Sequence record: OL631478.1
Source of the DNA: Escherichia phage ECML-1
Length of the DNA: 64,000 bases
Strand: one strand, 5' to 3'
Notes under the pieces: model-generated
What the model was told of the DNA's origin: nothing
Seen by the model: the letters and a program-made list of their open reading frames with translations, nothing else
Database searches by the model: none
Shown: piece by piece, positions 5,485 to 63,556 of the stretch
Numbering within the stretch: the first letter of the stretch is position 1
How the letters are laid out: each line of letters starts with the position of its first letter
Program-made: the position numbers and the translations under genes

Positions 5485-5783
5485 TTTCTCTTACCACCAA
5501 TCTCTACGTCGATAACTTGAACATCGCCAGCAACATCAAACTTATGAATGATGCTTTCAGCAGTGTAAGTCCAACCATCAATGCGAACCAACTCACCTTC
5601 TCGTGGGACGATTGGATTACGTTGAGCTATGGTTGCAGTGGAGTGAACAACGTCATAACGATAGATATAGTTTACTAGGACTTCCATCGTGAAAACCTCA
5701 CTCAATAACCGTAGTATGTGATTGACCATTTTTGCCGTAGCTATAAGATGTTGTTGTTTGAGAGTTTGGACATCTGACAACAA
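5481..5783 (-). CDS. hypothetical protein
   Basis: 100 aa ORF; overlaps the next ORF in another frame, so one of the two may be spurious. Confidence 0.4.
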   Translation of the reverse strand: MLSDVQTLKQQHLIATAKMVNHILRLLSEVFTMEVLVNYIYRYDVVHSTATIAQRNPIVPREGELVRIDGWTYTAESIIHKFDVAGDVQVIDVEIGGKRK

Positions 5784-5934
5784 TAATATCCCTACTTATA
5801 GCATCACCATGTAACTTGTATACTCTGCAATCTTGCATCTCTGGTGGGAGACTGTAAGAAGCATTTTTATCTTCATAAGAAGGGTTGCAGCCAGATAGAA
5901 AAATAACACCAAGTGCAATTACTGCTTTCCACAT
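5698..5934 (-). CDS. putative lipoprotein
   Basis: MWKAVIALGVIFLSGC N-terminus (signal peptide with lipobox-like LSGC); start taken at the internal Met. Confidence 0.4.
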   Translation of the reverse strand: MWKAVIALGVIFLSGCNPSYEDKNASYSLPPEMQDCRVYKLHGDAISRDIIVVRCPNSQTTTSYSYGKNGQSHTTVIE

Positions 5935-6121
5935 AATACTCACCCTATTACTGTTCACGATGTTCTACTTCTCTGTATGTGCGTCGGTAGTTTATGATAA
6001 GAGGTGCTAATTCATTGCTTTTAACATTTGAACGTAACAGTTGCCAGTCAAAACCTTTAGCGACTCTTCCATATAAATTAAATAACTTTACTTTGCGTTT
6101 CATTTTTGGTATCTCCAATAC

Positions 6122-6334
6122 TCAGATGTCAATATTAATACGCTCACCCTTAAGGACTCCTGTACGGTCTCTTGCAATCTTACCGTCAACAATAAGAATG
6201 TGTGCAGACCTTAAAGAATCATGATTAAAACCTTTTACGAACTTACTAGGCATCACTACAATAAGCATCTCCTGAATTAACTCTGGAGTGTAGCAATTGC
6301 CATGAAGTTGCTGAATAACGTCTGCAAGTGTCAT
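6122..6334 (-). CDS. hypothetical protein
   Basis: 70 aa ORF between the polymerase gene and the lipoprotein gene. Confidence 0.35.
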   Translation of the reverse strand: MTLADVIQQLHGNCYTPELIQEMLIVVMPSKFVKGFNHDSLRSAHILIVDGKIARDRTGVLKGERINIDI

Positions 6335-6395
6335 ATAACCTCCTATACAAGATACAGTATAAGGTACTCTTCCATGAGCACCTTGTCAACACTAA

Positions 6396-9095
6396 TTAGT
6401 GAACCTCAAGCCAGCTTTTACCAACCTTACCAGTACCTGTAACAAGCGTTTCTTTCTTAAGACCTAAGTTCTTAGAAGCTTGTCCATAATACCAGTCAGT
6501 AACTGCTTTCACTTCTGCCGTCATACTTTCTGGACATTCCCAACTCGTCTCGTCGTGATATGCGCAGAGTAAACGAGCACCAATAGCTGGTTTACGCCCA
6601 TTTAACTTCATTAAGCCTTCGTCAATCATACGACGGCAAGCAAGGTTAATTGCCTCATTTTGAATCTGAGCCTCTGAACCCATGAGCAAATAATTCAACA
6701 GCTTATGCGGAGATTTACACCACAACCAAGCTCCAGCAACCTTTACAAAACCCCCTTTAGAGATTGCAGCAGTCTTACCAAACACCTCTTCAAGTGCCTT
6801 TTTAGTTGCTTTGTAGTCAGCTTCCAAGTCATCTAACAGCTTCTTAATTTTAGGCAAACGTATAAAGTAAGTCTGTTTAGTCAGCGCACCTTCCTTAGTA
6901 GTCGCAGCTTTAATCGTCTTAGCAAACTTCTCATCACCTGCACCGAACAGCAGTGCATAGATACCATTCTTAGCTTTCTTACGACCTTTGCTAATCTCAT
7001 GAAGAAGATTCTCATCCTGAGTAGCTCGACAAGTCAAGATGTCCTGCTCATCATTCAAGCTAAAGTAAATACTGTTCAGTGTATGTGCATCAGTTCCTGA
7101 ATAGACAACGTACAGGTCATTCTCAGAGTCATAGCGAAGGTACTTATCAATCTCTGGGTTGAGGTACTCATCAAAGTGTTTGCAGTAATAGCGTCCATCT
7201 TCTTGACGAATGAACTCAATTTCTTCTTTACCTTGCGTTACCGCTTTGGTGAAGTCTTTATCACCCATAAAGTTACAAAGTAGAACTAGCTGGGCTGAGT
7301 TCATATCTACAGAGACAACGTTAGTACCTTCCTCACAAATCCACACTGCCCTCATTGGTTCCCCATAGACAGCAGCACCAGACGGTACGTTTACAATACC
7401 ATATTGTGTCATACGTCCAGTTGAAGTACCAAACACCATTGCACCAGCACTAAGGCGACCATCAGGACGAATCTGGTTCAACCAACCTTTTTCATCATCC
7501 TTTGAGTTCTCAATAGTTCTGCGTCGGTGCATCAAAGTATAGTACTTAGCAATCTTCTGTCCAAGCTCACCTTCAATCGTATCATAAGATGATTCAGTAA
7601 GTTTTGGTGAAGTACGGATTAAGCAAGGCTCAAGCAAATCTGTGTACTTCTTCACAGACCAGTTATGCTCAATGTACTGTACACCTTCATGTTCAACATA
7701 GCTCAAACCACACCGCTCAACCATTTCCTGCCACTTAGGATGTTTTGTAATCATCTTTTTATTGTCTTTGAAACGACAAACTTTGACAGGGCGACCGTCT
7801 GAGTCTTTCTTGTAGTTCCAGTCATCTGGAATCCAACCAACTGATTTCAAGTAGTCTTTAACAACTGCTACCTGAGTCATACGAGAAACTTCAAAATCAA
7901 TTGGTGTATATGGTGCATCAATCAAACCTGTGTAGCGACTTGACTCAAGCTCAAAGTGGTTAACAACGTGACTGTTATAGTACTTCACAGTTTTGACTGT
8001 TTTCACTGGCTTCCAGTCTTTGCATTTCTTACCAATCTTTGCATTCAACTCATTGCAAATTGCACGAGCATCCTTCATTGCTACAAAGCCTTCCTTGTAC
8101 TCTTCACCAGTTACAGAGTTGGTTGGTGTATAGCAATTCCTCTTTTCAATGTTAAAAATCTTTGTAGTTGGCTTACCAAATGGTTTGATTTCGTATGTCT
8201 GCATCTCACCGTTACGCACCTGTTGACGGTACTTCGTCTTAGGATACTTGGTGATTCTCTTCAACCCATCTGCATGACCAAATGTTTCAACATACTCATT
8301 CCAAGCCTTTGCAAACTCTTCACCAGTTACTTTACCTTTGGTCTTAATAGTTGGAGGTAGATGTGGTTCAACCTCTGAAGCAAGCTCATTAGTCAACTTG
8401 TCAAGTTCCTTTACATGGAACTCCATAAGCTCTTTATCAGCTTTCCAACCATTGATAGCTTGCTGGCTCATCCAGAAAGATGTTTCTTTAGCTCGCATGT
8501 AGGTTTCATAAGTATCTATGCCACACTTCTTAAGCTTGAGATACTCATTATCAAGTGCCCGTTTAGTTTTGGCGTTAATACGGATATCTTCTACAACACG
8601 AGTGAAGATTTCTGCATTCCACACACCCCAATGTTCAATCTCTGGTTTACGAACACCAACACGAGCACCCCATGCAGCCAAACCATGAGCACCTTTATAA
8701 CCCTTTGGAGTTGGTCTATCCATCCACTGAACACGAGACTGGATAAGAGAATCCTGAAAGAAATTACTCCACGGTTTACACTTTGGGTTATCAAAGTTCC
8801 ATAAATCAGGTGCAATGTGATTGAAAACCCACCAGTCATAACCGAGACCGTTATGGATGCAAAGACGTTTTGCCTTTAACGCAAACTCAATACCTTCACG
8901 TAAGCCACCCTTGATGTACTTGGTGTACTTGTGACCGAGAATAGGTTCATCTGTAAAGACCCATACAGGTGGCTCTTCATCGTCAGATTTATAGTCTGCG
9001 AAAGCCATTACGTGCACTTTAGTGAACTCAAGGAGTAAACCATCAGTTTCTGTATCACCAACTAAATGTAAGTTTTTAAAATCTACGTTTTCCAT
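6396..9095 (-). CDS. DNA polymerase, family A (T7-type) with N-terminal 3'-5' exonuclease domain
   Basis: N-terminal GDTETDG, HNGLGYDWWVF and HGLAAWGARVG motifs parallel T7 DNA polymerase exo motifs; about 900 aa; start placed at MENVDF (ATG at 9095) which follows an AGAGGGAG Shine-Dalgarno. Confidence 0.8.
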   Translation of the reverse strand: MENVDFKNLHLVGDTETDGLLLEFTKVHVMAFADYKSDDEEPPVWVFTDEPILGHKYTKYIKGGLREGIEFALKAKRLCIHNGLGYDWWVFNHIAPDLWNFDNPKCKPWSNFFQDSLIQSRVQWMDRPTPKGYKGAHGLAAWGARVGVRKPEIEHWGVWNAEIFTRVVEDIRINAKTKRALDNEYLKLKKCGIDTYETYMRAKETSFWMSQQAINGWKADKELMEFHVKELDKLTNELASEVEPHLPPTIKTKGKVTGEEFAKAWNEYVETFGHADGLKRITKYPKTKYRQQVRNGEMQTYEIKPFGKPTTKIFNIEKRNCYTPTNSVTGEEYKEGFVAMKDARAICNELNAKIGKKCKDWKPVKTVKTVKYYNSHVVNHFELESSRYTGLIDAPYTPIDFEVSRMTQVAVVKDYLKSVGWIPDDWNYKKDSDGRPVKVCRFKDNKKMITKHPKWQEMVERCGLSYVEHEGVQYIEHNWSVKKYTDLLEPCLIRTSPKLTESSYDTIEGELGQKIAKYYTLMHRRRTIENSKDDEKGWLNQIRPDGRLSAGAMVFGTSTGRMTQYGIVNVPSGAAVYGEPMRAVWICEEGTNVVSVDMNSAQLVLLCNFMGDKDFTKAVTQGKEEIEFIRQEDGRYYCKHFDEYLNPEIDKYLRYDSENDLYVVYSGTDAHTLNSIYFSLNDEQDILTCRATQDENLLHEISKGRKKAKNGIYALLFGAGDEKFAKTIKAATTKEGALTKQTYFIRLPKIKKLLDDLEADYKATKKALEEVFGKTAAISKGGFVKVAGAWLWCKSPHKLLNYLLMGSEAQIQNEAINLACRRMIDEGLMKLNGRKPAIGARLLCAYHDETSWECPESMTAEVKAVTDWYYGQASKNLGLKKETLVTGTGKVGKSWLEVH

Positions 9096-22273: not shown

Positions 22274-22515
22274 TGACTTATGTGATTTACTCCAAAACTG
22301 GATGCCCTCAGTGTGAGACTGCAAAGAATTTTGCAAAAGCTCGTGGTATTGACCATGTTGTGAGAATGTTAGGGCAGGACTATGAACTGTCAGACCTGAT
22401 GGATATTGCACAGATGCCAGTTCGTCAGATGCCATTCATCATGAAAACTGATGGACAAAACCTAAAACCTGTTGGGACGCTACAGAATTTTATGGCAGAG
22501 GTGAATAATGCTTAA
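22273..22515 (+). CDS. glutaredoxin-like protein (NrdH/Grx family)
   Basis: CPQC redox motif in an 80 aa protein directly after nrdB. Confidence 0.6.
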   Translation: MTYVIYSKTGCPQCETAKNFAKARGIDHVVRMLGQDYELSDLMDIAQMPVRQMPFIMKTDGQNLKPVGTLQNFMAEVNNA

Positions 22516-22714
22516 ACGCATTTGGGAAGGTTTGGTTGTCGATGCACCAGCTATTGTGATTGGTATGCTGATTGTTAACCTATTTACTGATTTTGAACAA
22601 GGTTCATTGTTTGGGGCCATGTTACTATGGGTTATCTTTGAAATATTAGAGATACAGTTAGGTATCACTGAAAAACTGAGAAAACTCTTTGCGAAGTTTT
22701 CTAAAAAGATTTAA
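22508..22714 (+). CDS. small membrane protein
   Basis: 68 aa with two hydrophobic segments. Confidence 0.4.
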   Translation: MLKRIWEGLVVDAPAIVIGMLIVNLFTDFEQGSLFGAMLLWVIFEILEIQLGITEKLRKLFAKFSKKI

Positions 22715-24916: not shown

Positions 24917-24956
24917 AGGTGATGTGGGTCTTGATAGGCTTGCATCACCTTTTTTA
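24917..24956 (+). terminator. intrinsic terminator
   Basis: aaggtgatg...catcacctt hairpin followed by ttttt. Confidence 0.6.
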
Positions 24957-25061
24957 TTGGATGTTAGATATGGCAGAGAACATCATTGGCCTATTCATAG
25001 GTTCTGTCTTACTAGGGTTCTTTTTAGGACTCTCTTATTGTGAATTGAGAGATAAGTTAAA

Positions 25062-25262
25062 ATGTTTAAGATATCAAAAACGATGATATACATACTCCAC
25101 ATTCTAATCTTCTTCTTTGGGGTTAGTGTTATGTTATGGGGTTTTTCAGACCCACAATGGAGTTTATCATATCATGGTCAGATGGATTTATGGTCATGCT
25201 TCAAACCATTTTTAGGGTTAGCTATAGCATTCAGTGCATTACCAACTAAGGTGAAATTATGA
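25062..25262 (+). CDS. small membrane protein
   Basis: 66 aa with two predicted transmembrane segments. Confidence 0.35.
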   Translation: MFKISKTMIYILHILIFFFGVSVMLWGFSDPQWSLSYHGQMDLWSCFKPFLGLAIAFSALPTKVKL

Positions 25263-31737: not shown

Positions 31738-34104
31738 ATGCGCATGGTAAACGACCACGCAGAAGTGATTAAGAGTTCAACTTCTTTAGAGACGTCTCAA
31801 GCACAGATTACAATGACACCTGAGATGTTCAGCCTTTTGAGTTCTGGTGTATATACCTTTAAAGAAAGGGCAGTGATTCGTGAACTGTCATGTAACGCAG
31901 TAGATGCTCAGAAAGAAGCTGGAAAAGAGAACATCCCATTCCATGTGCATTTACCTACTCGTTTTGAGCCTTACTTCGAAGTTCGTGATTTTGGAACTGG
32001 ATTGACTCATGATAAAGTTATGAGTTTGTACCTAAACTATGGAGCTTCTACGAAGAATGACTCTAATGACTACATTGGTGCAATGGGTATCGGCTCAAAG
32101 TCACCATTTGCAATTGCTCAGTCATTCACAGTATCTAGCTATGTTGATGGTGTTGTTAATAAGTACTCTGTTTATCTTGAGAATGGTATCCCTCAAGTAA
32201 CTAAGCTGACAACTAACCCAACAAAAGAACCTAATGGTTTAGCTGTACGTGTGGCGGTTGCTGACCACCGTATCTCAAAGTTCTTTGAAGAAGCTGGGAA
32301 TGTGTACTCATACTTCACTGTAAAACCAGAAAGTAATATTGAGTACGACGATGTATTAGCAGATATGAACGTCATTGCCCGTGAAGAAGGTGTTTATGAT
32401 GCCATGATTCATAAGCACAGCTGGCGTTCTAGTGATAACAGGACAGAGTTTAATGTGGTGATGGGTAACATTGCCTACCCTGTTAACATGGAAGCATTAC
32501 TTGGTGATGATTTCTTCAAAGTATTGCCAGAATTTTTCCGTAGGAGCGTAGACCTTGTAAACATCTACATGCCTATTGGTTCAGTCGCTATTGCAGCTTC
32601 TCGTGAAGCATTGCAGATGAATGACACGACAAAAAATGTTATCATTGAGGCTACTAAAAAGATAACTGAAGCAATTACAAAGGATGTTATCAAGAAAGTT
32701 AACAGTCAACCTACACTCATGGATGCTGCACAGGCTTATGCTGAGTTACGTTTGAACTCACGAGAGATGTTTAATGCTGTGTGTCCAAAGTTAGAGTGGG
32801 GAGGCGTTAAGCTTGATTCTCTGGAAGAAGAATTACTAAACATTCGTCGTGGAATTATCTACGCAGAAGACGGCTCAGTCATTTATGAACGTGACGGTAA
32901 AGGTAATATTAAGGTTGATAGGAACGGAAACAACATCCCTAAAGTAGATTATCTTTATGACCCAGTTGCTTATGTCAAGTTCAACTCTTTAGAGAGTAAG
33001 ATTCGTGCAACAGCACTTTCCTACACTCAAGAGGCAAGTATGTTCAATATCTTTGGCGCAATGCGTAAAAGCCAAATTGAACAGTTTTTGTTTGTTATAA
33101 ATGACCGTCGCAATAAAAATGGTACTGAGAAGACTGTAGGACGCAACCAAATCTTGCGTGGTGCATGTCGAGACTATGCCAGTGAGTCAAGTCTGTTTCA
33201 CAGATACAATGGTATTGTCTTTGTATTCTCGACTGAAAAAGAGTTAGATGACTTAATCAATCTGCACAAACTTGATAAAAGCTTGTTAAAGATTGTGAAA
33301 ATGTCTGATAAGGAACACCATTACCAGCGTAAAGAAGCTGTAAGAGGTGTTGTAAAACTCTGGAAAGCTGTTCCAGCAGAAGGTGTAGCTTCCTATAAAG
33401 AGGTTTCAGAGGACTTTGATACAATTGAAGAGCCTCAGCTTTACATTAAGGCAGTTGGTGATACAGTTGATGGTAGATGTTTTTGCTCATCTCCAGAAGA
33501 TGTAGCTAAGTCAGTTGCTAATGTTACAGGTAAGACAGTCTATGTTTTCCGAAAAGCAAATTGGAAAAAGATACCAGAAGATTGGATTGAAGTAGATGAG
33601 AAACTCTTGAACGACAGCTTAACTGATGTTCACTGGATTAACCATAACAGATATATGACGCGTATCTATATGAATGGTGTCCTTGACCTTACAAGCAGTT
33701 GGATTATTGCCAGAAACTTTACGTTTAATAACAGGAAGATTTCTCGCGGGTATTGTTATTCAAGGGATACTATTAAGACAATCTTCTTAGAAGGGAATGA
33801 AGATGCTGTTGAGGCAATGTTTGGTAAGATTCAGTATGTGGCTGCACCGTTTGCATACACTTACACTATCAGTGTTCTTCAGGATTTGAAGTCATGCCTT
33901 GATAATGACACAAAACTGTACAAAAAGATTAAGAAAGCAGGTGACCGCATGGTTATCAAGCTGACAAACTATCTTTCAAAAAGAAAACAAGAAAACTTCT
34001 TGCTTTCACACTTAGATTGGAATAAAGTATCACCTATCGAAGTGAGTAAGTTTTTAGGCTTTGATGTGAAGTGTGTTCCAGAAGGGACTACAATTTACGA
34101 TTAA
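31738..34104 (+). CDS. rIIA: rIIA-like protein with N-terminal GHKL-type ATPase motifs
   Basis: N box ELSCNAVDA, G1 box VRDFGTGL and G2 box GAMGIGSKSPF near the N-terminus; 788 aa, comparable to T4 rIIA (725 aa). Confidence 0.5.
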   Translation: MRMVNDHAEVIKSSTSLETSQAQITMTPEMFSLLSSGVYTFKERAVIRELSCNAVDAQKEAGKENIPFHVHLPTRFEPYFEVRDFGTGLTHDKVMSLYLNYGASTKNDSNDYIGAMGIGSKSPFAIAQSFTVSSYVDGVVNKYSVYLENGIPQVTKLTTNPTKEPNGLAVRVAVADHRISKFFEEAGNVYSYFTVKPESNIEYDDVLADMNVIAREEGVYDAMIHKHSWRSSDNRTEFNVVMGNIAYPVNMEALLGDDFFKVLPEFFRRSVDLVNIYMPIGSVAIAASREALQMNDTTKNVIIEATKKITEAITKDVIKKVNSQPTLMDAAQAYAELRLNSREMFNAVCPKLEWGGVKLDSLEEELLNIRRGIIYAEDGSVIYERDGKGNIKVDRNGNNIPKVDYLYDPVAYVKFNSLESKIRATALSYTQEASMFNIFGAMRKSQIEQFLFVINDRRNKNGTEKTVGRNQILRGACRDYASESSLFHRYNGIVFVFSTEKELDDLINLHKLDKSLLKIVKMSDKEHHYQRKEAVRGVVKLWKAVPAEGVASYKEVSEDFDTIEEPQLYIKAVGDTVDGRCFCSSPEDVAKSVANVTGKTVYVFRKANWKKIPEDWIEVDEKLLNDSLTDVHWINHNRYMTRIYMNGVLDLTSSWIIARNFTFNNRKISRGYCYSRDTIKTIFLEGNEDAVEAMFGKIQYVAAPFAYTYTISVLQDLKSCLDNDTKLYKKIKKAGDRMVIKLTNYLSKRKQENFLLSHLDWNKVSPIEVSKFLGFDVKCVPEGTTIYD

Positions 34105-34183: not shown

Positions 34184-35293
34184 ATGACTACTAAAACTAA
34201 AGCACAGATTGACGCAGAAATTTACAAACTGGTTAAAGAAGGTAAGCTGACCAAAACAGCTATTGCACAGAAATTTAACACTTCAACCCGTTCAGTTGGT
34301 CGTGCTGTAGAGCGTCATGAAGCAACCTTAAAAGGGAAGAAGAAGGTGACTTCTACACCAGCTACGAAGACTTTGAAGCAAGTTGCTAAGACTTTTAAAA
34401 AGAAAGCTGGCAAACCAGTTGAAAAGGTCGTTAAAGACGCTGTACAGAAAGCTCCAGTAAATAAACTGCACGAAGCTATGCAGAAAGATGACAAGATTGA
34501 GTACATGATTACTGGTGATTCTGTAATTATGACTTATGGTTCAGAATCTGAAATTGTTGAGTCTACTCATCCGAACTATCAAGAGATTGTAGTTCATGTT
34601 GTGAAAGGTGAGTTCAAGAAAGCATTTGAACTGATGAACATTCGTAAGTCTATCGAAAACTTCACTCAGGGTGCTATCACAATCAAAGGCGACAAGCTAT
34701 TCTACGGTGCTGTTGAGATGCGTTCTACTCTGGTTGACCGTATTCTTCACATGATGAAAACTGGCGATAAAGGTTTTGAACGACTTGTAATGTTCTTCGA
34801 AAAACTGATGGAAAACCCATCTAAAGATTCTGTAGAACAACTTTGGGGATTTGTATCTCACCTTGATGTTGAAATTGATGAAGAAGGCTACATCATTGGT
34901 TGGAAGAAAGTCTCTACTCGTGAAGGCAAGCTGGTTGACTCTCACACCTACAAAGTGCCTAATGATTTGGGTAACATTGTAGAAATGCCACGTTGGATGG
35001 TTGATAATAACCGTAACGTAACTTGCTCTCAAGGTCTTCATGTTGGTGCTTGGGATTATGTTCGTTGCTTCTCAGGTGATACAATCCTGAAGGTTCGCGT
35101 ACATCCACGAGATGTTGTATCTGTTCCAACTGATTACAACGATATGAAGATGCGTTCCTCTCGTTATGAAGTTGCAGCAATCGTTGATAATCAACGTAAA
35201 GTGCTGGAAGCATGGGACGGTAAGACTGAAGCTTTGCATGTCATCGTTGGCACTGCTGGTGAACTCATCTCTCAACGTAAACGTGAAATCTAA
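34184..35293 (+). CDS. hypothetical protein (rIIB-like by position)
   Basis: 369 aa ORF directly after the rIIA-like gene; assignment is positional only. Confidence 0.3.
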   Translation: MTTKTKAQIDAEIYKLVKEGKLTKTAIAQKFNTSTRSVGRAVERHEATLKGKKKVTSTPATKTLKQVAKTFKKKAGKPVEKVVKDAVQKAPVNKLHEAMQKDDKIEYMITGDSVIMTYGSESEIVESTHPNYQEIVVHVVKGEFKKAFELMNIRKSIENFTQGAITIKGDKLFYGAVEMRSTLVDRILHMMKTGDKGFERLVMFFEKLMENPSKDSVEQLWGFVSHLDVEIDEEGYIIGWKKVSTREGKLVDSHTYKVPNDLGNIVEMPRWMVDNNRNVTCSQGLHVGAWDYVRCFSGDTILKVRVHPRDVVSVPTDYNDMKMRSSRYEVAAIVDNQRKVLEAWDGKTEALHVIVGTAGELISQRKREI

Positions 35294-35393: not shown

Positions 35394-35942
35394 ATGAAGA
35401 AATTGATTCTAGGTTTGTGCTTAATGTTTACAGCACACTTATCTTATGCAGTTGACTGCCCAGAGCTATCAATTAGCCAAAAAGTGAACATGTTAAAAGC
35501 TTACCAGTATGGTGAGAATAACATGGGGAAAGGTTGGGGTATCACTCTAGCAGCTATAGCCTTACAAGAGTCAGAGTTAGGTCTGAAGGTAGAAAATAAA
35601 AAGACCCATGACTATGGTATCTTCCAGAATCACTTGAAGACTGTTGTAAAGCGTAACAAAATTAGTCCTAATGTTGCTAAAAAGAAACTCTTAAAAGATT
35701 TTGACTATGCCGCAAAAGAAACACATAAAGAGCTTGAGTTTTGGACGAAGGTACATGGTCACCCAAAGTCAAAGAAGACTTTACAAAAAGTTTTAGCATC
35801 ATATAATGCTGGGTATTCGTACAGAATCCCTAAAGCTAAGAAATACTCTCAAGATGTCTATAACAATATGAAAGTTATCGCTCAATGTGAATTTGCAACA
35901 AACATTTCTAAGGTAAATCATGAAAAAATTAAGAAAGTCTGA
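35394..35942 (+). CDS. secreted protein, possible lytic transglycosylase (SLT-like)
   Basis: Signal peptide MKKLILGLCLMFTAHLSYA; AIALQESELGL...DYGIFQ resembles the SLT catalytic motif. Confidence 0.4.
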   Translation: MKKLILGLCLMFTAHLSYAVDCPELSISQKVNMLKAYQYGENNMGKGWGITLAAIALQESELGLKVENKKTHDYGIFQNHLKTVVKRNKISPNVAKKKLLKDFDYAAKETHKELEFWTKVHGHPKSKKTLQKVLASYNAGYSYRIPKAKKYSQDVYNNMKVIAQCEFATNISKVNHEKIKKV

Positions 35943-36615
35943 TGAAGTCCTGTGCCACGCTTATGACTTGCATCCTCATGAGTTAGGTCTTGATTCCTGT
36001 GTATGGACTCCAGAACAGTGCAGAGATTTTGAAGACACTGCAAGAGAGGTTGTATGTTCACTTGAAGAGTTCCACACATCAGAACCCATTGTGAACGTTG
36101 TGGACAAAGAGACTGGACAAACTATAGGTGTAAGGCGTGATAGTTTAGTGATAGTCAATAAAGACCTTGTAGAAAAAGGTAACCTCATCTTAGCAGATAT
36201 TGATGGTGTTCTTACAAATTTTAATCACGAAGATTGCTCAACGGAATTGACTGATGGGTCATTCTCACAGTACACTAATCTTCTTGATTCTGTAAGAGCA
36301 AAACCAACATATGTTTTCAACATTATTGATGCAATTGCAAATCATGCAGCAGTTGGACTCTTGACAGCAAGAGGTGAATCTCAGAGAATACCTACTGAGA
36401 TGTTTTTAAGGCACAATATAGAGCATGATTACTTGCTTTTTATGCGTGGTTTTGGAACTAACTCTATAAGTGCAGAAAGTTTGAAAGTGAGGATGATTCA
36501 GTCTTGCATTCTTCCTTACTTTAATATAGTATGCTTTATAGAAGATACAGAGAAGAATGTTCAGAAGGTAAACAGAATCCTTCCACACATTAAAACTATG
36601 TTAGTTAAACATTGA
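35920..36615 (+). CDS. hypothetical protein
   Basis: 231 aa ORF. Confidence 0.45.
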   Translation: MKKLRKSDEVLCHAYDLHPHELGLDSCVWTPEQCRDFEDTAREVVCSLEEFHTSEPIVNVVDKETGQTIGVRRDSLVIVNKDLVEKGNLILADIDGVLTNFNHEDCSTELTDGSFSQYTNLLDSVRAKPTYVFNIIDAIANHAAVGLLTARGESQRIPTEMFLRHNIEHDYLLFMRGFGTNSISAESLKVRMIQSCILPYFNIVCFIEDTEKNVQKVNRILPHIKTMLVKH

Positions 36616-37091: not shown

Positions 37092-37103
37092 GGTTAAGAT
37101 ACA

Positions 37104-37125
37104 GGCTCCTTCGGGAGCCTTTTTC
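37104..37125 (+). terminator. intrinsic terminator
   Basis: aggctcc-ttcg-ggagcct followed by ttttt. Confidence 0.7.
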
Positions 37126-37143
37126 ATTTTAGGAGATTGTTAA

Positions 37144-37491
37144 ATGACATTTAAAGAGTTCTGTCAAGCTACTTTCATAATTGTTTTCTTAGTTGGGGCA
37201 GGTGTCTGGGGAGGATACTCTTACAGAGACTACCAAGTTGCTGAAACTGAGCTAAATAATGAGAAGCTGATAAGTGTTGCTAAAGATGCTTATCAGGAAG
37301 GTTTAGCCACACTCAGCACCAATTACAAAAATGATTTGAAAGACGTGCTTGCTAAGAATAAGCATACAAAAGAGGTACTAACGTATGAAAAGACTAAGCC
37401 AGAGTTTTATAATGTTTGTGTTACTGATAATTATGTCAGGGTGTTCAACGAACAAAGTGAACAGTACATTCAAAAACTCCCAAGTAAGTGA
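37144..37491 (+). CDS. membrane protein, i-spanin-like
   Basis: N-terminal transmembrane segment FIIVFLVGAGVWGGYSY followed by a charged helical region. Confidence 0.35.
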   Translation: MTFKEFCQATFIIVFLVGAGVWGGYSYRDYQVAETELNNEKLISVAKDAYQEGLATLSTNYKNDLKDVLAKNKHTKEVLTYEKTKPEFYNVCVTDNYVRVFNEQSEQYIQKLPSK

Positions 37492-37654
37492 GAGTGACAA
37501 GTACACTCAAGAAGAATCAAGATTCACTGTCAAAGGTAATACTGGTAGTGATGTGGCAGCAGCCCTTGAGTTTTATCGTGATGGTTTTTACCAGTGCACA
37601 ATCAAAGCTAATAACCTTATTGATATGATTTTATTAGGAAACAAACAGCAATGA
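37385..37654 (+). CDS. lipoprotein, o-spanin-like, overlapping previous gene in another frame
   Basis: MKRLSQSFIMFVLLIIMSGC has a lipobox-like cysteine; starts inside 37144..37491 in a different frame. Confidence 0.35.
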   Translation: MKRLSQSFIMFVLLIIMSGCSTNKVNSTFKNSQVSESDKYTQEESRFTVKGNTGSDVAAALEFYRDGFYQCTIKANNLIDMILLGNKQQ

Positions 37655-41386: not shown

Positions 41387-41683
41387 ATGAAATTATCAAA
41401 TAAAGTCCGTGAAAATTTAAGCAAGTTACTTAATAAAATTGATTTCATTGAAACATCAAGGAATAGTCATGATGTTATGGAATGGTTACACGGAAAAATC
41501 AAAGGCCGTCGTGTAGTGATTTGCTTATGGAACAGTTGCAGGGAGTATAAAAAACCTGTATTGCAAGTCAATATTTATGATGATACTTTTAAAAGTCCTG
41601 TAAAGTCTAAAAGCGATTTATTAGAATCCTATGAGATAACTGTAAATGGCAAAGTATCACGTAAAGAGGAAACACCATGTTAA
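41387..41683 (+). CDS. hypothetical protein
   Basis: 98 aa ORF. Confidence 0.5.
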   Translation: MKLSNKVRENLSKLLNKIDFIETSRNSHDVMEWLHGKIKGRRVVICLWNSCREYKKPVLQVNIYDDTFKSPVKSKSDLLESYEITVNGKVSRKEETPC

Positions 41684-42009
41684 TGACTGGTATCACTGCA
41701 ATCATTGCCATTTTCGCGCTATATAAGGCATATAAAGCCTATAATCTGGCAAGTAAGGCAATCACACAACAGGTTAATAATAACCTTGTAATGAGCTTTC
41801 TAGAGCGTTTAAGTGATGAACAATTAAAACGGCTAGAAATGAGCTTTAGATTCAGGGCGAGAACTTATCAAATCAGTGACATTTTCAAAGATAATTTTCA
41901 ATTAGTCGATGATTATAATTCTCTGATAAATGCTTTAAATATTAGTGACTTAAAAGATTATCACGCTGTAATTGTTCAAGAATTGAGCAAACGAAAACAA
42001 AACTGTTGA
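41677..42009 (+). CDS. hypothetical membrane protein
   Basis: 110 aa; N-terminal hydrophobic segment MLMTGITAIIAIFALY; overlaps the upstream gene by 7 nt; no cassette. Confidence 0.45.
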   Translation: MLMTGITAIIAIFALYKAYKAYNLASKAITQQVNNNLVMSFLERLSDEQLKRLEMSFRFRARTYQISDIFKDNFQLVDDYNSLINALNISDLKDYHAVIVQELSKRKQNC

Positions 42010-49701: not shown

Positions 49702-50235
49702 CTATAATTGTAGGTTGCATTCTTTACTTACCTCTTCAAGTTTAATCTCCGAGTCCTTAAGTCGTTTCTTATGAACTCTGAACCTCATTAGTGAGATGAT
49801 AATACCAGCTAAAGGAACAGCATACAAGTACCAGATATCATGCAACTTTGCAGTAATCTGTGTAATTGTCAAATCTTGAGCTATGTAGCCGATTGCTGAT
49901 ACTACCAGTAACATTGCTAAGAAGAACACTAGTATCATAGCAATATTTAGACAACCTCTGGCATGGTATTCATGCTTAATACACTTATTCTTTTCGTCAA
50001 CAACTCTGTTGTAGTCATTTGTAAAGTCTCTGTAGAAAGCTTTCAGGTATTCTTGAGTATAGCCTTCAAAGCAACCTGTACCGTACCAATAATCACCACC
50101 AAAATGTGCTACGATACCGGTATCTCCATTCGGTTTGGTTACTTTTAAAGAAGTATGATGGCGAGTATCCTGATAATCTATCTTGTATCTTTCTTCGTAA
50201 ATCATTTCCCAACCCCTCTCAATCGTTTGTTCCAC
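49702..50235 (-). CDS. hypothetical membrane protein
   Basis: 177 aa with two hydrophobic segments (IAMILVFFLAMLLVVSAIGYI; YAVPLAGIIISLM). Confidence 0.45.
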   Translation of the reverse strand: MEQTIERGWEMIYEERYKIDYQDTRHHTSLKVTKPNGDTGIVAHFGGDYWYGTGCFEGYTQEYLKAFYRDFTNDYNRVVDEKNKCIKHEYHARGCLNIAMILVFFLAMLLVVSAIGYIAQDLTITQITAKLHDIWYLYAVPLAGIIISLMRFRVHKKRLKDSEIKLEEVSKECNLQL

Positions 50236-52552: not shown

Positions 52553-53017
52553 TTACTTTGGATATACACTGTCAAGATAAATGTCAGCTTCCATTCTACG
52601 TCTGTTTTTCAGACCGTTTGAGGTGACCTTCTTACCTTTGACTGTAACCTTGTTCCACCACTGCATAGCTTCTGCGCAACCTACCTTATTACCAGCATTG
52701 TGGCGCTTGATAAATGTAGAATCCTGCATAGCTGTGATGCCGATGTTGTATGTTTCACTTACAAGTGCATCAAACTCGTTCTGAGAAGTTGGAACCTTGA
52801 TAGCTTTGTTCACTGCTGTAACAAACTTTTCAACATCTGCGAGAAGATAATGTTCAGCTTGTTCAGCAGTAATTATCATACCCATCTTAACAGGTTTTCC
52901 GTCAATACGGATTGTACCATACCCGATTGTAGGGATTCCGGCAGAGTCTTCGTAAGCCTCTAACTTCAGACCTTCAAAGAACTTAATAGCTTCTAAACCT
53001 TTTCTTGAGAGTTGCAT
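52553..53017 (-). CDS. endolysin, phage lysozyme (GH24-like)
   Basis: FEGLKLEAYEDSAGIPTIGYG matches the catalytic-Glu region of phage lysozymes; 154 aa. Confidence 0.75.
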   Translation of the reverse strand: MQLSRKGLEAIKFFEGLKLEAYEDSAGIPTIGYGTIRIDGKPVKMGMIITAEQAEHYLLADVEKFVTAVNKAIKVPTSQNEFDALVSETYNIGITAMQDSTFIKRHNAGNKVGCAEAMQWWNKVTVKGKKVTSNGLKNRRRMEADIYLDSVYPK

Positions 53018-62647: not shown

Positions 62648-63382
62648 ATGAAAGAGATGACAGAACAAGGTAAGGAGATTTTTAATCTCTTAAAAACCGG
62701 TAAAGGGTTCTCTAACCCACTGATTACCGGTGCAGCAGTTCTCGGTGGAACCGTAGCTGCTTCTACATCACTTGTAAGCTCTATTAGTTCTGTAACAGAC
62801 CCTACAATGAAGGAGAAACTTGTTGCTGCTGGACTTACAACAGTCCTTCTAAACAGCTTTACAACAAGCCTTACAAGCACTACAGCAACTACTAAAACTC
62901 TGACAGACTACGGTCAAAAGTCTATTGATGAGTTTTCATCACGTATGCAGGTAGCAAAGGGGTATTCCAATGTTATGGGTGCAGCAGGAGAACAAGTTGG
63001 TTGTACACCATTCAGTGGTATCATGGGTGTTGCTACAGAGTATGGTCAAAAAGCTATTGACATGATGAACAGTACACTAGATAGTGTTAATGGTGTGTTA
63101 AGTGACTTACAAGATGCTATTGATAAGGGTCTTGATACTGTTTCTGATTTAGCTAACCAAGCTGTCAGTAAGATTAATGAAGGTATCTCAAAGATTACAG
63201 CTTATGCAGATGAAGTTGTGCAGATGATTGAAGAAGAAGCTGCCCTTATTGCAGAGTACCTTAAAACGAATATCAATGGGTTCTTAGCAGGTATCTTACC
63301 AGACTGGTTTGATGATGCTTGTAAAACTGGTGTGATTGACACTATTGCAACACCAGAAATGAAGAACGCATTACAGAAATAA
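62648..63382 (+). CDS. hypothetical protein (Ser/Thr/Ala-rich)
   Basis: Start moved to the internal Met (MKEMTEQ) because the ORF-track start lies inside tRNA-Phe; 244 aa. Confidence 0.45.
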   Translation: MKEMTEQGKEIFNLLKTGKGFSNPLITGAAVLGGTVAASTSLVSSISSVTDPTMKEKLVAAGLTTVLLNSFTTSLTSTTATTKTLTDYGQKSIDEFSSRMQVAKGYSNVMGAAGEQVGCTPFSGIMGVATEYGQKAIDMMNSTLDSVNGVLSDLQDAIDKGLDTVSDLANQAVSKINEGISKITAYADEVVQMIEEEAALIAEYLKTNINGFLAGILPDWFDDACKTGVIDTIATPEMKNALQK

Positions 63383-63384
63383 TG

Positions 63385-63476
63385 GAAGATTAACCCTAAA
63401 AGGTAAGGGAGCAGTTTGCTAAACTGCCAGTAGCTGAGAAATCGGTGTACCAGTTCAAGTCTGGTATCTTCCTCCA
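63385..63476 (+). tRNA. tRNA-Ser(GCT)
   Basis: Type II, acceptor ggaagat/atcttcc, anticodon arm gcagt-ttgctaa-actgc, long variable arm, CCA encoded. Confidence 0.6.
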
Positions 63477-63480
63477 ATTT

Positions 63481-63556
63481 GAATCCGTGACAGAAATGGC
63501 TATGTGCCTGTCTGCAAAACAGGTTTATAAGGGTTCGAGTCCCTTCGGATTCTCCA
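63481..63556 (+). tRNA. tRNA-Cys(GCA)
   Basis: Acceptor gaatccg/cggattc, anticodon arm cctgt-ctgcaaa-acagg, T-arm aaggg-ttcgagt-ccctt, CCA encoded. Confidence 0.65.

What the first reader, a model, noticed from the sequence alone, without database searches (positions are those of the whole stretch)
37144..37654. Overlapping membrane-protein and lipoprotein genes (spanin-like pair) far from the endolysin
A protein with an N-terminal transmembrane segment (37144..37491) overlaps in another frame a lipoprotein-like ORF (37385..37654), the classic i-spanin/o-spanin arrangement, yet the endolysin gene is about 15 kb away on the opposite strand and no holin is evident beside either.
Basis: inference. 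Interest (0 to 1): 0.4.

Follow-up and report, generated by a model that had tools for sequence, protein, structure and literature searches.

The report
Felix O1-type overlapped spanin gene pair
These two overlapping genes are the already catalogued two-part "spanin" of Felix O1-like phages, which most likely breaks the host outer membrane at the end of infection, and their distance from the other lysis genes is normal for this phage group.

Summary
ORF 37144..37491 (115 aa, N-terminal membrane segment) overlaps by 107 nt, in the +1 frame, ORF 37385..37654 (89 aa, lipoprotein signal ending in the lipobox IMSG-C20).

The window is a Felixounavirus genome, 96% identical to EC6 and wV8. Both frames are real genes:
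- The lipoprotein frame has dN/dS of 0.05-0.15 outside the overlap.
- Synonymous change collapses inside the overlap, as expected for dual coding.
- The lipobox ORF persists in relatives whose membrane partner is only 26-28% identical, including Erwinia phages and Kuravirus podophages.

The pair is already published. Kongari et al. 2018 list Felix O1, wV8, EC6, Mushroom and Moogle in the 'JH2' i-spanin and o-spanin families, and Felix O1 itself under the 'overlapped' architecture. Many GenBank records annotate the pair as i-spanin and o-spanin.

The scattering of lysis genes is also published for Felix O1-like phages, as it is for T4. The endolysin is at 52553..53017 (-). A topology-based holin candidate (DUF7338) lies at 61639..62196 (+), inside the tRNA array.

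I found no experimental test of this spanin family.

Verdict: interpretation supported, ordinary, already known.

The parts
37103..37130 (+). Intrinsic-terminator-like hairpin (AGGCTCC-TTCG-GGAGCCT followed by a T-run) just upstream of the i-spanin gene. Spanin transcription probably depends on read-through.
   Evidence: 7-pair stem, 5 G-C pairs; sequence read.
37131..37135 (+). Shine-Dalgarno sequence AGGAG, 8 nt before the i-spanin ATG.
   Evidence: Sequence.
37144..37491 (+). i-spanin gene (115 aa). Inner-membrane subunit with an N-terminal membrane segment and a C-terminal domain inferred to be periplasmic.
   Evidence: ORF; phrog_1152 Rz-like spanin, E = 8e-42; 402 phage records; annotated i-spanin in relatives.
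37159..37215 (+). Membrane segment of the i-spanin, residues 6-24 (FCQATFIIVFLVGAGVWGG).
   Evidence: Kyte-Doolittle 19-residue window, mean 1.75.
37417..37419 (+). Codon of Cys92 of the i-spanin. It is the only Cys in the C-terminal domain and is invariant in 7 diverse relatives, within the motif EK..P.F.N.C...F.
37372..37376 (+). Shine-Dalgarno sequence GAGGT, 8 nt before the o-spanin ATG, inside the i-spanin gene.
   Evidence: Sequence. Mushroom and Moogle records annotate a ribosome-binding site at the same place.
37385..37654 (+). o-spanin gene (89 aa precursor, 70 aa after cleavage). Outer-membrane lipoprotein subunit, in the +1 frame relative to the i-spanin.
   Evidence: phrog_4180, E = 9e-51; phrog_456 Rz-like spanin, E = 6e-5; dN/dS 0.05-0.15 outside the overlap; 319 phage records; annotated o-spanin.
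37385..37491 (+). Dual-coding overlap of 107 nt. The conserved C-terminal motif of the i-spanin is read in one frame and the o-spanin signal peptide in the other.
   Evidence: variable columns are 18.7% here against 30-36% in the flanks, and dS is 0.06-0.24 here against roughly 1 or saturated outside.
37442..37444 (+). Codon of Cys20 of the o-spanin, the lipobox cysteine (IMSG|C). It is followed by Ser at +2, so there is no Asp inner-membrane retention signal.
   Evidence: C20 and S21 are invariant in 7 relatives.
37595..37597 (+). Codon of Cys71 of the o-spanin. It is the only Cys in the mature protein apart from the lipid-modified Cys20, and is invariant within the motif LE[FYW][YW][RQ]D...C....N.L.
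52553..53017 (-). Endolysin (154 aa, T4-lysozyme type, soluble), the peptidoglycan-degrading partner in lysis.
   Evidence: PF00959, E = 4.8e-40; phrog_7 endolysin, E = 4.6e-56.
61639..62196 (+). Holin candidate (185 aa, one N-terminal membrane segment), embedded in the tRNA array. The assignment appears to be by topology only.
   Evidence: 95.7% identical to Mushroom 'holin' gp87; tRNAs on both sides; DUF7338 and phrog_2143, both unknown function; PMC4392139.
31738..35293 (+). rIIA (31738..34104) and rIIB (34184..35293) homologues, upstream in the same gene run.
   Evidence: ORFs; annotation of collinear relatives at the same offsets.

Best explanation
The two genes encode the two-component spanin of a Felix O1-like myophage (genus Felixounavirus), in the 'overlapped' gene architecture.

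Shown here:
- Both frames are real, conserved, translated-looking genes.
- The first protein has one N-terminal membrane segment.
- The second has a lipoprotein signal with a lipobox cysteine and Ser at +2.
- Each has one invariant cysteine outside its membrane or lipid anchor.

Inferred by analogy with lambda Rz/Rz1 and T4 PseT.3/PseT.2:
- The 115-aa protein sits in the inner membrane with its roughly 90-residue C-terminal domain in the periplasm.
- The 89-aa precursor is lipidated at Cys20, cleaved, and sorted by the Lol pathway to the inner leaflet of the outer membrane.
- The two periplasmic domains bind each other through the peptidoglycan mesh.
- The complex is covalently stabilised through the conserved cysteines.
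- Once the holin has let the soluble lysozyme (52553..53017) destroy the cell wall, the freed complexes fuse the inner and outer membranes. That removes the last barrier to phage release.

The genes are remote from the endolysin and the candidate holin because this phage group, like T4, has no lysis cassette.
For: - ORFs, overlap and ribosome-binding sites.
- Membrane segment.
- Lipobox is rare in the window (3 of 234 ORFs).
- phrog_1152 'Rz-like spanin', E = 8e-42.
- Window is 96% identical to EC6 and wV8, and relatives annotate the same pair as i-/o-spanin.
- Purifying selection on the second frame (dN/dS 0.05-0.15) and suppressed dS in the overlap.
- A lipobox ORF overlapping the 3' end of the i-spanin homologue is kept in Mooglevirus, Suspvirus, Kolesnikvirus and Kuravirus, where i-spanin identity falls to 26-28%.
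- Invariant Cys92 (i) and Cys71 (o).
- Published census places Felix01, wV8, EC6, Mushroom and Moogle in the JH2 i- and o-spanin families, and Felix01 in the overlapped class: PMC6139136.
- Scattered lysis genes are described for this group: PMC3185647, PMC4319497, PMC4392139.
- Felix O1 ORF6, the i-spanin homologue, is maximally transcribed at 25 min, in the same class as the lysin ORF35: PMC3185647 Table 3.
Against: - I found no experimental test of any member of this sequence family. PMC8300805 states that further studies are needed.
- There is no detectable sequence similarity to the two tested paradigms. No Pfam Rz/Rz1 hit appears at E <= 1. BLASTP against T4 PseT.3 and PseT.2 gives E = 18 and 8.3.
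- The o-spanin's own PHROG (4180) is labelled 'unknown function'. Its link to a spanin PHROG is weak (phrog_456, E = 6e-5).
- Topology of the first protein is not settled by flanking charges.
- Structure predictions are low-confidence (pLDDT 48.7 and 53.7).
- The pair lies in a run of middle-expressed genes behind a terminator-like hairpin, not in a late lysis module.
Confidence: 0.88

Rival explanations
1. The pair is an envelope-bridging or envelope-modifying complex with a function other than terminal lysis. It might act in superinfection exclusion or lysis timing together with the neighbouring rIIA/rIIB genes. On this reading the 'spanin' label has simply been propagated by topology.
For: - The pair lies immediately downstream of rIIA/rIIB and a Pnk-like gene, in a middle-expressed run of genes.
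- No member of the family has been tested.
- The o-subunit's PHROG is of unknown function.
Against: - T4's experimentally verified spanins are likewise remote from e and t and sit next to pseT (PMC6139136).
- The same pair occurs in unrelated Kuravirus podophages without rII neighbours.
- No other spanin candidate is annotated in the complete Mushroom genome.
- The only other lipobox ORF in the window has no adjacent membrane-protein partner and no C-terminal membrane segment.
Confidence: 0.06
2. The two proteins act independently. The lipoprotein would be a stand-alone outer-membrane factor, for example a receptor-blocking lipoprotein of the Llp/Cor kind. The gene overlap would then be mere genome compaction.
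For: - Gene overlaps of a few bases are common throughout this genome.
- Interaction between the two proteins was not tested and could not be modelled here.
Against: - The 107-137 nt overlap and the pairing itself are kept across genera and even across phage families, while flanking genes change.
- Each partner keeps exactly one invariant cysteine outside its anchor, and each keeps a conserved C-terminal motif.
Confidence: 0.04
3. The second ORF is a chance open frame in an AT-rich genome, and only the first gene is real.
For: Alternative-frame ORFs of 30-109 codons are frequent in this region. Many GenBank records leave the ORF as 'hypothetical protein'.
Against: - dN/dS is 0.05-0.15 in the non-overlapping part.
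- dS is suppressed in the overlap.
- The ORF is intact over at least 80% of its length in all 319 phage records that match it.
- The lipobox Cys is invariant in relatives whose o-spanin is only 30-39% identical.
- It has its own Shine-Dalgarno sequence.
Confidence: 0.01

Closest known systems
'JH2' i-spanin and o-spanin families of Kongari et al. 2018 (Felix O1, wV8, EC6, FO1a, Mushroom, Moogle, UAB_Phi87, FSL SP-010/012/107; the i-spanin family also includes phiEco32-like podophages)
   Same: The window's proteins are 98-100% (i) and 94-100% (o) identical to named members. Sizes are the same (115 and 89 aa), the overlap is the same 107 nt, and the gene neighbourhood is the same. This is the family the pair belongs to.
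   Different: Nothing of substance, only strain-level substitutions.
Phage P2 LysB/LysC (paradigm of the 'overlapped' spanin architecture)
   Same: The o-spanin gene starts inside the 3' part of the i-spanin gene in the +1 frame and extends beyond it (architecture as defined in PMC6139136).
   Different: P2 sits in a separate sequence family in the census. By my own knowledge of P2, its genes lie in a lysis cassette next to holin and endolysin. Here they are 15-24 kb from both.
Phage T4 PseT.3/PseT.2
   Same: - Subunit sizes are similar (117 and 83-99 aa against 115 and 89 aa).
- Lysis genes are scattered.
- The spanin genes lie next to a polynucleotide kinase/phosphatase gene.
- The endolysin is a soluble T4-lysozyme type.
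- rIIA and rIIB are present.
- The Mushroom authors call the system 'T4-like'.
   Different: - There is no sequence similarity (E = 18 and 8.3).
- T4's genes are 'separated' rather than overlapped, and lie upstream rather than downstream of pnk.
- T4 has no Cys in the i-spanin and two in the o-spanin (PMC6139136). Here each subunit has one.
- The candidate holin does not match the T4 holin family: no Pfam hit other than DUF7338.
Phage lambda Rz/Rz1
   Same: The inferred function and membrane topology are the same: an inner-membrane subunit plus an outer-membrane lipoprotein, with periplasmic cysteines.
   Different: - There is no Pfam Rz/Rz1 match.
- Lambda's Rz1 is fully embedded within Rz and sits in a lysis cassette.
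- Lambda Rz1 is short and proline-rich (my own knowledge). This mature o-spanin is 70 aa with no proline.

Membership tests
Two-component spanin (functional class; criteria of Summer 2007 / Kongari 2018) | i-spanin: a small protein with a single N-terminal transmembrane domain and the rest in the periplasm (N-in, C-out). | tested here: met
   One hydrophobic segment at residues 6-24 (KD 1.75) and none elsewhere. Orientation is inferred, not shown, because flanking charges are not decisive.
Two-component spanin (functional class; criteria of Summer 2007 / Kongari 2018) | o-spanin: an outer-membrane lipoprotein signal, meaning a basic n-region, a hydrophobic core, a lipobox ending in Cys, and no Asp at +2. 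| tested here: met
   MKRLSQSFIMFVLLIIMSG-C20-S fits the PS51257-type rule. C20 and S21 are invariant in 7 relatives. SignalP and LipoP were not available.
Two-component spanin (functional class; criteria of Summer 2007 / Kongari 2018) | The o-spanin gene is embedded in, overlapping, or immediately downstream of the i-spanin gene. | tested here: met
   107-nt overlap in the +1 frame, conserved as 107-137 nt in relatives.
Two-component spanin (functional class; criteria of Summer 2007 / Kongari 2018) | Periplasmic cysteine(s) available for intermolecular disulfide bonds. | tested here: met
   Cys92 (i) and Cys71 (o) are present and invariant. Actual bond formation is not testable here.
Two-component spanin (functional class; criteria of Summer 2007 / Kongari 2018) | Helical or coiled-coil periplasmic domain in the i-spanin. 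| tested here: inconclusive
   The single-sequence AlphaFold2 model is all-helical, but its mean pLDDT is only 48.7.
Two-component spanin (functional class; criteria of Summer 2007 / Kongari 2018) | Required for outer-membrane disruption; complements lambda Rz/Rz1 defects. | not testable with these tools
   I found no published test for this sequence family.
JH2 / Felix O1 spanin sequence families (Kongari 2018) and PHROG 1152 | Sequence membership of the i-spanin. | tested here: met
   phrog_1152, E = 8e-42, full length. It is 98-100% identical to FSL SP-107, wV8, EC6 and Mushroom, all of which are listed as family members.
JH2 / Felix O1 spanin sequence families (Kongari 2018) and PHROG 1152 | Sequence membership of the o-spanin. 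| tested here: met
   It is 94.4% identical to the Mushroom and wV8 o-spanin loci. It matches phrog_4180 at E = 9e-51.
Lambda Rz / Rz1 sequence families (Pfam Phage_lysis / Rz1) | Significant match to the Pfam models. | tested here: not met
   At E <= 1, Pfam returns only unrelated sub-threshold hits for both proteins.
T4 PseT.3 / PseT.2 sequence families | Detectable sequence similarity to the T4 proteins. | tested here: not met
   BLASTP E = 18 (i) and 8.3 (o).
T4-type holin T (tested on the holin candidate at 61639..62196) | Match to the T4 holin family. | tested here: not met
   The only Pfam hit at E <= 0.1 is DUF7338, and PHROGs gives only phrog_2143 of unknown function. The one feature shared with T4 holin T is a single N-terminal membrane segment followed by a long C-terminal domain.

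The most novel reading that the evidence does not exclude
This family has never been tested. Each subunit carries exactly one invariant cysteine outside its anchor, unlike lambda or T4. The genes are co-expressed with middle genes next to rIIA/rIIB. It therefore remains possible that the complex is not a classical lysis spanin. It could be a heterotypically disulfide-linked envelope bridge with a role in lysis timing or exclusion, working with a still unverified holin (DUF7338, encoded inside the tRNA array).
Probability: 0.06. Interest if true: 0.5.

Novelty: already known. Interest (0 to 1): 0.07.

Why it matters
It matters little beyond correct annotation. The pair should be labelled i-spanin and o-spanin (overlapped class, Felix O1/JH2 family). 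Many GenBank relatives still carry 'hypothetical protein' for the o-spanin.

Felix O1-like phages are widely used for Salmonella and E. coli biocontrol and diagnostics, and two points remain open for them. This spanin family has not been tested experimentally. The holin has been assigned only by topology.

Tried and rejected
- Pfam and NCBIfam scans of both proteins gave only sub-threshold, unrelated hits. The weak NCBIfam hits of the o-spanin are to the signal-peptide parts of bacterial lipoprotein families.
- Direct comparison with T4 PseT.3/PseT.2 showed no similarity, and comparison with T4 Pnk showed only faint similarity around the phosphatase DxDG motif. I therefore dropped the idea that the shared pnk neighbourhood reflects homology.
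- Single-sequence AlphaFold2 models of both proteins were of low confidence. I used them only as a hint of secondary structure and ran no fold search on them.
- I looked for a second spanin or a unimolecular spanin. The only other lipobox ORF (5698..5934, -) has no adjacent membrane-protein partner and no C-terminal membrane segment.
- I looked for a holin beside the endolysin or the spanins. Neither has a small membrane protein directly next to it. Other small membrane ORFs exist elsewhere in the window, and all belong to PHROGs labelled 'unknown function' or simply 'membrane protein'.
- Several fetched loci were not copied to the Python sandbox. I read those relatives with the ORF listing and the alignment tools instead.

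Full report
**1. What is in the sequence**

The first ORF, 37144..37491 (+), encodes 115 aa beginning MTFKEFCQATFIIVFLVGAGVWGGYSY. It has one hydrophobic segment, at residues 6-24, with a mean Kyte-Doolittle score of 1.75 over 19 residues, and no other.

The second ORF, 37385..37654 (+), lies in the +1 frame and encodes 89 aa beginning MKRLSQSFIMFVLLIIMSGCSTNK. This start has three features of a lipoprotein signal:
- a basic n-region (K2, R3);
- a hydrophobic core;
- a lipobox I-M-S-G-C with the cysteine at position 20 and Ser at +2.

It fits a PROSITE PS51257-type rule.

The two genes share 107 nt. Each start codon has a Shine-Dalgarno sequence 8 nt upstream: AGGAG at 37131-37135 and GAGGT at 37372-37376. 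The stop codon of the second gene overlaps the start of the next gene (ATGA at 37651-37654).

A GC-rich hairpin with a UUCG loop and a T-run lies just upstream, at 37103-37130.

**2. Is it more than chance?**

ORF length alone is not evidence here. Alternative-frame ORFs of up to 109 codons are common in this AT-rich region.

The lipobox, however, is rare. Of 234 stop-defined ORFs of at least 50 aa in all six frames of the window, three fit the rule. One of those is an antisense artefact without a hydrophobic core.

Conservation is decisive. I aligned the 511-nt locus with four relatives: BPS17W1, EP1, Moogle and SUSP1. Nei-Gojobori estimates against the window gave:

| Region and frame | dN/dS or dS |
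|---|---|
| Second frame, outside the overlap | dN/dS 0.05-0.15 |
| First frame, outside the overlap | dN/dS 0.04-0.15 |
| Overlap, either frame | dS 0.06-0.24 |
| Outside the overlap | dS about 1, or saturated |

Only 18.7% of alignment columns vary inside the overlap, against 30% and 36% in the flanks. This is the signature of two genuine overlapping genes.

**3. What the window is, and how far the pair extends**

The region is 96-97% identical to Escherichia phages EC6 and wV8 and to many Salmonella, Escherichia and Shigella Felixounavirus genomes.

By tblastn, the first protein is found in 402 phage records and the second in 319. In every matching record the match covers at least 80% of the query.

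A lipobox ORF overlapping the 3' end of the i-spanin homologue is kept in five further genera:

| Phage | Genus | Lipobox |
|---|---|---|
| Moogle | Mooglevirus | LISGC |
| SUSP1, EP1 | Suspvirus | LMSGC |
| vEam_W_25, SeKF_13 | Kolesnikvirus | TTASC (137-nt overlap) |
| ES17 | Kuravirus (a podophage) | SLSAC |

The Kolesnikvirus and Kuravirus i-spanins are only 26-28% identical to the window's.

Across these seven sequences, the o-subunit keeps C20, S21, E62, D66, C71, N76 and L78. The i-subunit keeps the motif EK..P.F.N.C92...FN. The conserved i-spanin motif is encoded in the overlap, opposite the signal peptide of the o-subunit. This pairs a constrained segment in one frame with a permissive one in the other.

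**4. Family assignment**

The first protein matches PHROG 1152 'Rz-like spanin' over its full length at E = 8e-42. The second matches PHROG 4180 (unknown function) at E = 9e-51, and more weakly PHROG 456 'Rz-like spanin' at E = 6e-5.

Collinear genes are annotated i-spanin and o-spanin in BPS17W1, Mushroom, Moogle, SUSP1 and many others.

The published spanin census (Kongari et al. 2018, PMC6139136) places Felix01, FO1a, wV8, EC6, Mushroom, Moogle, UAB_Phi87 and FSL SP-010/012/107 in the 'JH2' i-spanin and o-spanin families. The i-spanin family also contains phiEco32-like phages. The same census lists Felix01, FO1a and UAB_Phi87 under the 'overlapped' architecture.

The pair does not belong to the lambda Rz/Rz1 Pfam families. 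It shows no similarity to T4 PseT.3/PseT.2, with E = 18 and 8.3. NCBIfam adds nothing.

**5. The 'far from the endolysin, no holin' part**

The endolysin is at 52553..53017 (-). It is a 154-aa soluble T4-type lysozyme (PF00959, E = 4.8e-40; phrog_7) and lies 14.9 kb away.

It is also a published trait of the group:
- Whichard et al. 2010 state that holin-lysin cassettes are absent from Felix O1 and that, as in T4, no holin gene is adjacent to the lysin (PMC3185647).
- The Moogle announcement says that in Felix O1-like phages the lysis genes are scattered around the genome (PMC4319497).

T4's own verified spanin genes are remote from e and t and sit beside pseT (PMC6139136). In the window the pair also lies two genes downstream of a Pnk-like gene (35920..36615). 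The order differs from T4, and there is no spanin homology.

The protein annotated as holin in Mushroom (gp87) has a 95.7% identical homologue in the window at 61639..62196 (+). It sits inside the tRNA array, on the same strand as the tRNAs. It has one N-terminal membrane segment. It matches only DUF7338 and phrog_2143, both of unknown function, so the holin call appears to be topology-based and remains unverified.

Other small membrane ORFs in the window are 22508..22714, 24922..25086, 25062..25262, 41677..42009 and 49702..50205. All belong to PHROGs labelled 'unknown function' or simply 'membrane protein'.

**6. Mechanism**

The following points are shown here:
- there are two real overlapping genes;
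- the first protein has a membrane anchor;
- the second has a lipoprotein signal with Ser at +2;
- each subunit has one invariant cysteine outside its anchor.

The following points are inferred from the established lambda and T4 spanin models:
- the 115-aa protein is anchored in the inner membrane with its C-terminal domain in the periplasm;
- the 89-aa precursor is lipidated at Cys20, cleaved, and sent to the outer membrane by the Lol pathway;
- the two subunits bind through the peptidoglycan mesh and are stabilised by disulfides;
- after holin triggering and murein degradation by the lysozyme, the complexes fuse the two membranes.

Two further observations fit this but do not prove it. First, Felix O1 ORF6, the i-spanin homologue, peaks at 25 min by RT-PCR, in the same class as the lysin ORF35 (PMC3185647 Table 3). 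Second, the single-sequence AlphaFold2 models are low-confidence (pLDDT 48.7 and 53.7). They suggest an all-helical i-subunit, and an o-subunit with a disordered linker and a C-terminal helix at residues 54-85.

I found no experimental test of this family. One comparative paper states explicitly that further study of these spanins is needed (PMC8300805).

**7. Rivals**

- A chance ORF is excluded by the conservation data.
- A non-lysis envelope function, or independent action of the two proteins, cannot be formally excluded without experiments. Both are disfavoured for three reasons. The pairing is kept across phage families with different neighbours. No alternative spanin is annotated in the complete Mushroom genome. 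T4 provides a verified precedent for remote spanin genes.

**8. Verdict**

The apparent oddity of a spanin pair far from the endolysin, with no adjacent holin, is the normal and already described organisation of Felix O1-like phages. The feature is already known and is of low interest.

The residual open points are the lack of experimental verification of this spanin family and of the holin.

Noticed in passing
window 61639..62196 (+), within the tRNA array 57810..63556: The only annotated holin candidate of this phage group is a 185-aa protein with one membrane segment (DUF7338, phrog_2143). It is encoded in the middle of the 25-gene tRNA cluster, on the same strand as the tRNAs. The holin label in phage Mushroom appears to rest on topology only.
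   Followed up: partly
window 35394..35942 (+): This 182-aa protein has a clear N-terminal signal peptide (MKKLILGLCLMFTAHLSYA|VD) and a sub-threshold SLT transglycosylase hit (PF01464, E = 9e-4). It lies two genes upstream of the spanins. Felix O1 ORF3 is noted as similar to the T4 20.7-kDa protein of the vs-regB intergenic region. The Mushroom record calls it a 'RegB-like endoribonuclease', which looks like a mis-transferred name. It may be a secreted murein-active protein.
   Followed up: partly
window 5698..5934 (-): This is a second lipobox ORF (78 aa, MWKAVIALGVIFLSG|CNPSYED; phrog_902, unknown function), downstream of the DNA polymerase gene. It has no adjacent membrane-protein partner and no C-terminal membrane segment, so it is not a second spanin. 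It may be an exclusion-type lipoprotein, but that is only an idea.
   Followed up: partly
window 49702..50205 (-); 22508..22714 (+); 24922..25086 (+); 25062..25262 (+); 41677..42009 (+): These are small predicted membrane proteins in PHROGs labelled 'unknown function' or 'membrane protein'. The 167-aa protein with two membrane segments at 49702..50205 lies 2.3 kb downstream of the endolysin on the same strand. All are alternative holin or antiholin candidates.
   Followed up: partly
window 37103..37130 (+): A strong terminator-like hairpin with a UUCG loop and a T-run lies only 14 nt before the i-spanin ribosome-binding site. No promoter-like site sits between them, so spanin expression seems to need read-through.
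   Followed up: no
L003 (KP143762, phage Mushroom) 16514..20574: In the Mushroom record the tRNA genes are annotated on the + strand while the embedded holin gene is on the - strand. In the window the tRNAs and the holin homologue share one strand. The tRNA strand in that record is probably wrong.
   Followed up: no
window 35920..36615 (+) compared with L010 (T4) 6003..7782: In both T4 and Felix O1-like phages the spanin genes sit beside a polynucleotide kinase/phosphatase gene. The spanins are not homologous and the gene order differs. The window's Pnk-like protein shows only faint similarity to the phosphatase half of T4 Pnk.
   Followed up: partly
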